Source: the human T2T-CHM13v2.0 reference genome, Homo sapiens. From it: a stretch of 64,000 nucleotides of DNA. The DNA lies in NCBI RefSeq assembly GCF_009914755.1, contig NC_060934.1. One strand, given 5' to 3'. Under the pieces are notes generated by a model, which saw only the letters and a program-made list of their open reading frames with translations, was not told the DNA's origin and searched no databases. Positions 33,828 through 35,064 of this stretch are shown here, piece after piece; within the stretch, counting starts at the first letter, position 1, and each line of letters starts with the position of its first letter. A program made the position numbers and the translations under genes.

Positions 33828-34091
33828 GGAGACTTCATCTCAGAAAAACAAACAAACAAAAAATGCATGTGTGCATTCTGTATATGCCATACCTGGGCTC
33901 CTTCTATTACCTCTTAAACTATGAGAAATGAATTTTCTCACTTTATCTTTACTGGAATTTTGATCTAAAATACATTCTGTTGCTCAAATTTGACTAAATA
34001 CTTCTAGGACAGAAATATGCAAAAATCCTTGTCTAGAGCAAGGTACTCCTGAGTTGGAGATGGGAAGGTAAGAAAAGAATGTGTAAGCATG
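33828..34091 (-). repeat. Templated insertion segment A: 264-bp inverted copy of 27026-27289
   Basis: Reverse complement matches base for base on manual comparison. Confidence 0.97.
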
Positions 34092-34212
34092 GACACCCAA
34101 GCTGGAGTGCAGTGGTGTGATCACGGCTCACTGCAGCCTTGACCTCCTGGGCTCAAGCAATTCTCCCACTTCAGCCTCCCAAGTAGCTGGGACTCCAGGC
34201 ATGTGCCACCAT
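34092..34212 (+). repeat. Templated insertion segment B: 121-bp copy of AluJ segment 38930-39050
   Basis: Identical, including locus-specific variants (GACACCCAAGC, GATCACGGCTC, GGACTCCAGGC). Confidence 0.95.
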
Positions 34213-35064
34213 GCCCAGCTAATTTTTTGTATTTTTAATAGAGACGGGGTTTCATCATGTTGGCCAGGCTGGTCTTGAACTCCTGGCCTCAAATCCGCCT
34301 GCTTTGGCCTTCCAAAGTGCTGGGATTACAGGCGTGAGCCACTGTGCCCGGGCTGCACACACGTTTTTTTGTGTGTTTGTTTGTTTTTGAGACGGAGTCT
34401 AGCTCTGTCGCCCAGGCTGGAGTGCAGTGGCGCAGGCACACATATTTTTAATGTCCCTTCCTGATATCATTACTTATCACCCCCATACCCTTGCCGCAGT
34501 CCAATGCCATCTGTGCCCCTGCCATGCTGCCTAGTAATGGGGATGCCCTGCATCTTATTAAAGGTGACTGACCCACCACTGAGCTATGGGCTTGCAACAC
34601 AGAAATTCATTTTTTAATTAGATAATTGATGTTCTCCAGATTCTTCTCTTTCTTGCCATACAGTTTTTTTAACTTCAATTATTTTTGTCATTTACTCACC
34701 ATCTTCTGTGGCAAATACATTCGTTTTTAAAAACTAATTTTATTTAATTAATTAATTTATTCGTTTTTGAGACGGAGTTTCGCTTTGTCACTCAGGCTGG
34801 AGTGCAGTGGTGCTATCTCAGCTCACTGCAACCTCCGCTTCCTGGGTTCAAGCGATTCTCCTGCCTCATGCTTGTAATTCTCTCTCTCCCGAGTAGCTGG
34901 AATTACAAGCATGCACCACCACACCTGGCTAATTTTTGTATTTTTAGTAGAGATGGGGTTTCGCCATGTTGGCCAGGCTGGTCTTGAACTCCTGACCTCA
35001 GGTGATCCACCCGCCTCGGCCTCTCAAAGTGCTGGGATTACAGGCATGAGCCACCACGCCTGGC
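34206..35064 (+). repeat. Templated insertion segment C: ~860-bp direct copy of 27405-28265
   Basis: Identical on manual comparison except T9 vs T7 run; includes unique non-Alu sequence and the duplicated ORF (28003 vs 34802). Confidence 0.97.

What the first reader, a model, noticed from the sequence alone, without database searches (positions are those of the whole stretch)
33828..35064. Recent three-donor templated insertion (serial template switching) assembled from neighbouring DNA
Seen: this 1,237-bp block is a mosaic of three segments. A (33828-34091) is the reverse complement of 27026-27289 (264 bp). B (34092-34212) equals 38930-39050 (121 bp of an AluJ ~4 kb downstream). C (34206-35064) equals 27405-28265. 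By eye the copies are identical, CpGs included, except a T9 vs T7 run. Direction is readable: the Alus at 27940-28266 and 38894-39193 keep both TSDs, while their copies here do not, so this block is the derived copy. It has no TSD or poly(A) of its own, so it is not a retrotransposition. Established: multi-segment, orientation-switching copies of nearby DNA with microhomology junctions are the FoSTeS/MMBIR signature. Inference: one replicative repair event with at least 4 template switches, very recent and possibly polymorphic or lineage-specific.
Basis: partly seen in the sequence, partly recalled or inferred. Interest (0 to 1): 0.9.

Follow-up and report, generated by a model that had tools for sequence, protein, structure and literature searches.

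The report
Recent three-donor templated DNA insertion
A 1.2-kb stretch of human chromosome 10 is a very young patchwork copied from three nearby places, a clean example of a known kind of error-prone DNA break repair rather than a new phenomenon.

Summary
Window 33828-35064 is a mosaic of A = reverse complement of 27026-27289 (264/264), B = 38930-39050 (121/121) and C = 27405-28265 (identical except T7 vs T9). In the whole T2T genome each piece has only these two full copies, and both flanks are unique. Target-site duplications of all three source Alus show that the block is the derived copy.

The event was DNA-templated and the donors were kept. It was most likely a single event. With no substitution in 1,237 bp including 21 CpGs, it is probably under about 2 Myr old (using my assumed mutation rates).

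One junction (B/C) is a 7-nt in-register Alu-Alu switch. The other three are blunt, with 0-1 nt.

Two regularities constrain the mechanism. The A and B donor breakpoints flank the same Alu tetranucleotide. The block starts with the reverse complement of the first 6 nt of the right flank.

Template-switch repair finished by end joining fits best. The same-locus inverted pair resembles insertions described in yeast (PMC11724301). Polymorphism, ancestry and read support could not be tested here. It is a new member of a known kind, of moderate interest.

The parts
33828..34091 (+). Segment A of the block: inverted copy of 27026-27289. It holds the last 18 nt and the A-rich tail of the source Alu1 plus 236 nt of its flank.
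   Evidence: 264/264 identical to the reverse complement; exact match ends at both borders; only 2 full copies in the genome
34092..34212 (+). Segment B: direct copy of 38930-39050, part of Alu3 about 3.9 kb to the right of the insertion point
   Evidence: 121/121; next best genome match 94%; 77.7% to the homologous Alu1 stretch
34206..34212 (+). B/C switch interval: 7 nt (CCACCAT) shared by Alu3 and Alu1, in register in their alignment
34213..35064 (+). Segment C beyond the shared 7 nt: direct copy of 27412-28265. It comprises the rest of Alu1, a 70-nt Alu fragment, unique DNA, and Alu2 up to 1 nt short of its 5' end.
   Evidence: identical but for T7 vs T9; unique core has 2 copies genome-wide
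34664..34670 (+). T7 run, the only difference from the donors (T9 at 27863-27871)
   Evidence: sequence
27026..27289 (-). Donor of A, intact in place. Its right end lies just left of the tetranucleotide CTCT (27290-27293) in Alu1.
38930..39050 (+). Donor of B inside Alu3, which keeps both target-site duplications (38884, 39196). The donor starts just right of the homologous CTCT (38926-38929).
27405..28265 (+). Donor of C. Alu2 within it keeps both target-site duplications (27930, 28269).
33808..33827 (+). Left acceptor flank, unique in the genome; ends ...CTCAT
35065..35084 (+). Right acceptor flank, unique in the genome. It starts GTCTCC, the reverse complement of the block's first 6 nt (33828-33833) and identical to donor 27284-27289.

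Best explanation
One DNA break in unique DNA between 33827 and 35065 was repaired by copying nearby DNA rather than by simple rejoining. This probably happened in the human lineage, in a germline or early-embryo cell.

Inferred sequence of steps:
1. The 3' end of the left side primed on the + strand at 27289 and copied leftwards for 264 nt (A, hence inverted).
2. It came off just before a T5 run and re-primed on the other strand inside Alu3 at 38930, copying 121 nt (B).
3. It slid in register onto the homeologous Alu1 at a 7-nt identity island and copied 852 nt more, to 1 nt short of the Alu2 5' end (C).
4. It was then joined bluntly to the right side of the break.

The donors stayed intact, so this is copy-and-insert, not cut-and-paste. 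It is serial template switching of the MMBIR/FoSTeS or synthesis-dependent kind, finished by end joining.

Shown: the mosaic, its direction, the junction sequences, donor retention and youth. Inferred: a single event, the order of steps, the polymerases and ligation, and the cell type.

I put about 0.8 on the umbrella reading 'one DNA-templated multi-template-switch event'. I put about 0.5 on this acceptor-primed version. Most of the rest goes to the donor-assembled version listed as the first rival.
For: - The three donors are exact and retained.
- The donors lie 6.5 kb left, 3.9 kb right and 5.6 kb left of the acceptor.
- The source Alus keep their target-site duplications and the block copies do not.
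- There are 0 substitutions across all three pieces despite 21 CpGs, so several separate events are unlikely.
- The B/C join is an in-register chimeric Alu with 7 nt of identity between elements only 72% alike, the usual product of homeologous template switching.
- The block's first 6 nt match donor 27284-27289 and are the reverse complement of the right flank's first 6 nt. The chance is about 4e-4 per comparison. This is expected if the acceptor end itself supplied a 6-nt primer, either because the empty allele carries those 6 nt or through a short run-off copy of the opposite end.
[quoted passage not shown] In a human-cell assay, 59% of insertions at breaks had one microhomology end and one blunt end, interpreted as invasion plus end joining (bioRxiv 10.1101/2022.09.30.509517).
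- No other near-identical non-Alu duplicate exists in the 64-kb window.
Against: - Three of four junctions have 0-1 nt of microhomology and no microhomeology, which is atypical for MMBIR. Blunt join-points were 9/159 in PMC6902434.
- The A donor end (27289) and the B donor start (38930) sit 4 aligned columns apart on either side of the same Alu tetranucleotide. This version of the model leaves that as a roughly 3% coincidence (my estimate).
- The end of C, 1 nt short of an Alu 5' end, is also unexplained. I estimate about 6% by chance over the six donor breakpoints.
- Hairpins next to the acceptor are no better than shuffles (z 0.09 to -0.27), so there is no evident cause for a stall there.
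- No empty allele, other haplotype or read was available, so 'single event', 'germline' and even the exact acceptor sequence are untested.
Confidence: 0.5

Rival explanations
1. The mosaic was assembled at the donor locus and then captured. A displaced single strand covering about 28265 down to 27026 switched template at its 3' end, onto Alu3 and then back onto its own Alu1 region. That produced a fold-back molecule with A as the loop and B-C as the copied arm. The molecule was cut at the stem-loop border, losing CTCT. The released piece was ligated by non-homologous end joining into an unrelated break 6.5 kb away.
For: - This explains why A and B-C are adjacent in donor coordinates (gap CTCT) and inverted relative to each other.
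- It explains why both outer junctions are blunt.
- It allows C to end by run-off at the 5' end of the strand.
[quoted passage not shown] In RPA mutants the fragments were adjacent with little overlap. Outer junctions had 0-4 nt. The authors' model is inversion in single-stranded replication intermediates followed by capture.
Against: - The inner inverted junction here (A/B) has 0 nt of microhomology, against a median of 6 nt (range 2-11) in yeast.
- A detour through Alu3, 11.6 kb from the strand's own locus, is needed.
- The 6-nt inverted match between block start and right flank becomes a coincidence of about 4e-4 per comparison.
- Not yet shown in human germline, to my knowledge. The yeast paper itself calls the human case open.
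Confidence: 0.3
2. Stepwise origin. First a plain dispersed duplication of 27026-28265, then an inversion of its first 264 bp, then a gene-conversion patch from Alu3.
For: The block equals the contiguous source 27026-28265 with its left 264 bp flipped in place and a 121-bp patch starting at the flip point.
Against: It needs three rare events at one 1.2-kb spot within the time in which no substitution arose in 1,237 bp with 21 CpGs. The patch starts exactly at the inversion breakpoint, which links the two.
Confidence: 0.05
3. RNA-mediated patch. Reverse transcriptase copied and switched between transcripts, including a read-through transcript started at the Alu2 RNA polymerase III start. The cDNA then filled a break, as in an endonuclease-independent or class 2 templated sequence insertion.
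For: C ends 1 nt short of the Alu2 5' end, where an Alu transcript would start. There is no target-site duplication or poly(A), as in class 2 templated sequence insertion polymorphisms (PMC5110952, passages).
Against: - A is antisense to C, so transcripts of both strands would be needed.
- The Alu-sense strand has a T5 terminator-like run right after the Alu2 tail (A5 at 27930 on the + strand), 525 nt before C stops.
- No annotated transcript covers the donors in the hub's table.
- The acceptor is not an L1 endonuclease-type site (the site consensus is recalled and also given).
Confidence: 0.05
4. Assembly artefact, or a change acquired in the CHM13 cell line rather than an inherited allele.
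For: Only one assembly was available. No reads or other haplotypes could be examined here.
Against: Three junctions are blunt joins in unique sequence, which an overlap-based assembler cannot invent without reads that contain them. The block is only 1.2 kb with copies 5-7 kb away, well inside single long reads. This is inference, not tested.
Confidence: 0.05

Closest known systems
Complex templated insertions by iterative template switching (FoSTeS/MMBIR), e.g. the complex chromosomal insertions of PMC5120786
   Same: Several segments copied from separate nearby loci are strung together at one site. There is an orientation switch, the donors are retained, and some junctions are blunt. [quoted passage not shown]
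   Different: That series concerns large pathogenic copy-number changes with microhomology at most junctions. Here there is a small, isolated, intergenic insertion with 3 of 4 junctions blunt and no accompanying copy-number change in the window.
Alu-Alu mediated rearrangement (chimeric Alu)
   Same: The B/C join is an in-register hybrid of two Alus 72% alike, switching at a 7-nt identity island. Chimeric Alus made up 12/159 join-points in PMC6902434.
   Different: Usually the hybrid Alu is the sole junction of a deletion or duplication. Here it is an internal join of an inserted mosaic.
Distant inverted templated insertions at double-strand breaks in yeast (PMC11724301)
   Same: Two fragments come from one locus in inverted orientation, adjacent in the donor, with end-joining-type outer junctions.
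   Different: Those are in yeast, mostly in RPA, rad27 or dna2 mutants. The fragments are tens to about 150 bp and the inner junction has 2-11 nt of microhomology. Here the setting is human, the fragments are 264 + 973 bp, the inner junction is blunt, and there is a third donor.
Class 2 templated sequence insertion polymorphisms (PMC5110952)
   Same: An insertion without target-site duplication or poly(A), with end-joining features and the donor retained.
   Different: Those come from distant, mostly transcribed regions and are thought to be RNA-derived single patches. Here there are three local donors on both strands and no sign of an RNA intermediate.

Membership tests
FoSTeS/MMBIR-type complex rearrangement | Two or more template switches joining segments from separate loci in one event | tested here: met
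   Three donors and four join-points, all exact. A single event is inferred from 0 substitutions.
FoSTeS/MMBIR-type complex rearrangement | Donors copied, not excised | tested here: met
   All donors are intact in place, with their Alu target-site duplications.
FoSTeS/MMBIR-type complex rearrangement | Microhomology or microhomeology at the join-points | tested here: inconclusive
   7 nt at B/C; 0-1, 0 and 0 nt at the other three; no microhomeology. The left junction would have 6 nt if the empty allele carries GGAGAC, which cannot be seen here.
FoSTeS/MMBIR-type complex rearrangement | Templates in physical proximity | tested here: met
   All donors lie within 6.5 kb of the acceptor.
L1-mediated retrotransposition / class 1 templated sequence insertion | Target-site duplication of at least 5 bp, terminal poly(A), insertion at a TTTT/A-type site | tested here: not met
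   Only a single G is repeated. The block ends ...CCTGGC and starts GGAGAC. The acceptor reads ...CTCAT|GTCTCC.... Criteria as given in PMC5110952.
Class 2 templated sequence insertion (break patch) | No target-site duplication or poly(A); end-joining features; donor retained | tested here: met
Class 2 templated sequence insertion (break patch) | Template is RNA or cDNA from a distant transcribed region | not testable with these tools
   No expression data. The donors are local and on both strands, and a terminator-like run lies inside C, which argues against this feature.
Alu-Alu mediated rearrangement | In-register chimeric Alu at the join | tested here: met
   B/C join
Distant inverted templated insertion (yeast class) | Two fragments of one locus, inverted, adjacent or overlapping in the donor | tested here: met
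   A ends at 27289. B-C starts at the position homologous to 27294.
Distant inverted templated insertion (yeast class) | Microhomology of 2-11 nt between the two inverted fragments | tested here: not met
   A/B junction has 0 nt. Criterion.
Non-allelic homologous recombination / ordinary segmental duplication | Junctions inside long, highly identical repeats | tested here: not met
   Three junctions lie in unique DNA or have no homology.

The most novel reading that the evidence does not exclude
This may be a human germline example of the 'same-locus inverted pair' class of templated insertions, so far described in yeast replication and RPA mutants. In that class the mosaic is built on a displaced single strand at the donor and then captured at a break. 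Here the 3' end of an Alu, next to its short GAGA...TCTC palindrome, would be the pivot. If that breakpoint position recurs in other human insertions, Alu 3' ends would be preferred template-switch or cleavage sites.
Probability: 0.3. Interest if true: 0.5.

Novelty: new member of a known kind. Interest (0 to 1): 0.35.

Why it matters
Because every base is still identical to its donor, all four junctions can be read without ambiguity. That is rare for germline complex insertions and useful for separating template switching from end joining.

The event also created new architecture:
- a perfect 264-bp inverted repeat with a 6.5-kb spacer;
- a perfect 859-bp direct repeat with a 5.9-kb spacer;
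- a 121-bp direct repeat with a 4.7-kb spacer.

These could now drive a recurrent inversion or a 6.8-kb deletion or duplication by homologous recombination. The region is intergenic, the nearest annotated elements being lncRNAs and enhancers from 40717 on in the hub table. No functional effect is expected.

Tried and rejected
- Hairpins or stall structures at the acceptor. The four 60-nt flank strands fold no better than shuffles (z 0.09, -0.22, 0.03, -0.27), so this was dropped.
- Meiotic hotspot origin. The degenerate 13-mer recalled for PRDM9 has 4 matches in the window against 1.35 expected. The nearest (31812) is 2 kb from the acceptor, and none is at a donor. No support.
- Rebuilding the empty site from paralogues. 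Both flanks are single-copy.
- Finding an empty allele in stray human DNA. A 28-nt left-flank string gave 0 hits in genome contigs and 0 in viral contigs.
- Microhomeology at the three blunt junctions was not found: 4-9 of 20 positions match.
- Retrotransposition was rejected: no target-site duplication, poly(A) or endonuclease-type site.
- No other human or ape assembly, variant catalogue or read set is reachable with these tools. My literature searches were on mechanisms, not on this locus. I therefore cannot say whether this insertion is already listed in a structural-variant catalogue, and no supplements were opened.

Full report
**What is there**

The window is human chr10 (T2T-CHM13, per the hub). 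The block 33828-35064 (1,237 bp) is an exact mosaic.
- A, 33828-34091, is the reverse complement of 27026-27289 (264/264).
- B, 34092-34212, equals 38930-39050 (121/121).
- C, 34206-35064, equals 27405-28265, apart from a T7 run (34664-34670) against a T9 run (27863-27871).

The exact matches stop at the stated borders, and B and C share 7 nt, 34206-34212. A repeat scan of the whole window finds no other near-identical non-Alu duplicate.

**Chance and uniqueness**

The window's own 3.1-Gb assembly was searched.
- A has 2 full-length matches among 13 hits. The other 11 cover at most 42 nt of the A-rich tail.
- B has 2 matches at 100% and the next best is 94%. Forty of 2,547 candidates were scored, so this is a lower bound on Alu relatives but not on the best ones.
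- The non-Alu core of C has 2 full-length matches.
- Each 500-nt flank matches only itself.
- B is 77.7% identical to the homologous part of Alu1, and the Alu part of C is 70.1% identical to Alu3. The donor assignment is therefore unambiguous.

**Direction**

All three source Alus lie on the minus strand and keep their target-site duplications.
- AAAAACTAA lies at 27930 and 28269 (Alu2).
- CATTTGATAC lies at 38884 and 39196 (Alu3).
- TGCACACA lies at 27242 and 27553 (Alu1).

The block has only the left Alu2 copy (34729), neither Alu3 copy, and the two Alu1 copies in opposite orientation (33868 inverted, 34354 direct). The block is therefore the derived copy, and the donors were copied rather than moved.

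**Age**

There is no substitution in 1,237 bp, which contain 21 CpGs. I assumed 0.5e-9 substitutions per bp per year and a 12-fold higher rate at CpG. These rates are from my own knowledge, not from a call.
- The 95% upper bound on age is about 1.8 Myr.
- P(0 differences) at 6 Myr is about 4e-5.
- Gene conversion between the copies could make the block look younger than it is.
- The T-run difference may be a copying slip or a later change.

**Junctions**

| Junction | Sequence | Microhomology |
|---|---|---|
| Left flank/A | ...CTCAT\|GGAGAC... | 0 nt (1 nt if the first G is counted) |
| A/B | ...GCATG\|GACACC... | 0 nt |
| B/C | CCACCAT | 7 nt, in register in the Alu1-Alu3 alignment |
| C/right flank | ...CCTGGC\|GTCTCC... 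| 0 nt |

Twenty-nucleotide comparisons on both sides of the three blunt joins give 4-9 matches of 20, so there is no microhomeology.

For scale, blunt join-points were 9/159 and chimeric Alus 12/159 in a compilation of replicative rearrangements (PMC6902434, passages). Blunt ends do occur in complex insertions attributed to iterative template switching (PMC5120786, passages).

**Three regularities**

1. The A donor ends at 27289 and the B donor starts at 38930. In the Alu1-Alu3 alignment these lie 4 columns apart, on either side of the same CTCT. Put differently, the block is the contiguous source 27026-28265 with its first 264 bp flipped, 4 bp lost at the pivot, and the next 121 bp taken from Alu3 instead of Alu1. 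I estimate about 3% by chance given both points lie in Alus.
2. The block begins GGAGAC and the right flank begins GTCTCC, its reverse complement. The latter is also the donor sequence at 27284-27289. For window composition the chance is 4e-4 per comparison, and perhaps ten such comparisons are implicit.
3. C stops 1 nt short of the Alu2 5' end. I estimate about 6% by chance over the six donor breakpoints. All three were noticed after the fact.

**Mechanism**

The umbrella reading is one DNA-templated event with several template switches. It is well supported by exact retained local donors, an orientation switch, an in-register chimeric Alu, and no time for separate events. I give it about 0.8. 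Two versions remain.

*Acceptor-primed.* The left end of a break copied A, then B, then C, and was ligated bluntly to the right end.
- Regularity 2 fits if the acceptor end supplied the 6-nt primer.
- That could be because the empty allele reads ...CTCATGGAGAC|GTCTCC..., a 12-nt perfect palindrome broken at its centre. The window holds 28 such palindromes.
- Or the left end first made a 6-nt run-off copy of the other end.
- In a human-cell assay, 59% of insertions at breaks had one microhomology end and one blunt end, read as invasion plus end joining (10.1101/2022.09.30.509517, passages).

*Donor-assembled.* A displaced strand at the donor switched template, formed an inverted molecule, and was captured by end joining.
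- This explains regularity 1 and the blunt outer junctions.
- It mirrors yeast data. Two fragments from one locus in inverted orientation made up 15/23, 14/18 and 3/3 of complex insertions in rad27, rtt105 and rfa1-t33 mutants. Outer junctions had 0-4 nt and inner junctions 2-11 nt (PMC11724301, passages).
- Here the inner A/B junction has 0 nt, which does not fit.

I put 0.5 on the first version and 0.3 on the second. The empty allele would largely decide between them.

**Rivals with little support**

- Stepwise duplication, inversion and conversion needs three rare events before any substitution arose.
- An RNA or reverse-transcriptase patch is suggested only by regularity 3 and by the lack of a target-site duplication or poly(A), as in class 2 insertions (PMC5110952, passages). 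It needs transcripts of both strands and read-through of a T5 run on the Alu-sense strand just past the Alu2 tail.
- An assembly artefact is unlikely for blunt joins in unique DNA, but no reads were available.
- A meiotic hotspot origin was considered. PMC7615360 reports template switching and end-joining signatures in complex variants at hotspots (passages). No hotspot-type motif lies within 2 kb of the acceptor or at any donor.
- Acceptor-side hairpins are not above shuffles.

**How ordinary it is**

Complex structural variants number on the order of 100-190 calls per human genome in one short-read study (10.1101/200170, passages). Multi-donor templated insertions are described in patients and in cell assays. 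This is a new instance of a known kind. Its value lies in the perfectly preserved junctions and in the inverted same-locus pair.

I could not check whether this insertion is already in a variant catalogue. No other human or ape assembly is reachable here. Searches for stray copies of the locus found none. My literature searches were about mechanisms only, and no supplements were opened.

Noticed in passing
window 27242-27249, 27553-27560 and about 27635-27641: The heptamer GCACACA occurs three times. It lies left of Alu1, again between Alu1 and a 70-nt 5'-truncated Alu fragment (about 27563-27633), and a third time right of that fragment. This looks like two Alu insertions into the same target or a shared target-site duplication. 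All of it was copied into the block.
   Followed up: no
window 33828-33833 and 35065-35070 (also 27284-27289, 33799-33804): The block's first 6 nt are the reverse complement of the right flank's first 6 nt. If those 6 nt belong to the acceptor, the pre-insertion site was a perfect 12-nt palindrome broken at its centre.
   Followed up: partly
window 27021-27025 and 28269-28273: Copying of A stops immediately before a T5 run in the template. Copying of C stops 3 nt before an A5 run. The only internal difference is a slip in a T9 run. Homopolymers may mark where the copying enzyme let go.
   Followed up: no
window 31812-31824: One of four matches in the window to the degenerate 13-mer recalled for recombination hotspots lies 2 kb left of the insertion point. 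Four matches against 1.35 expected; 5 of 100 shuffles reach four.
   Followed up: partly
window 27026-27289 vs 33828-34091; 27405-28265 vs 34206-35064: The insertion created a perfect 264-bp inverted repeat (6,538-bp spacer) and a perfect 859-bp direct repeat (5,940-bp spacer). These are possible substrates for a secondary inversion or a 6.8-kb deletion or duplication.
   Followed up: no
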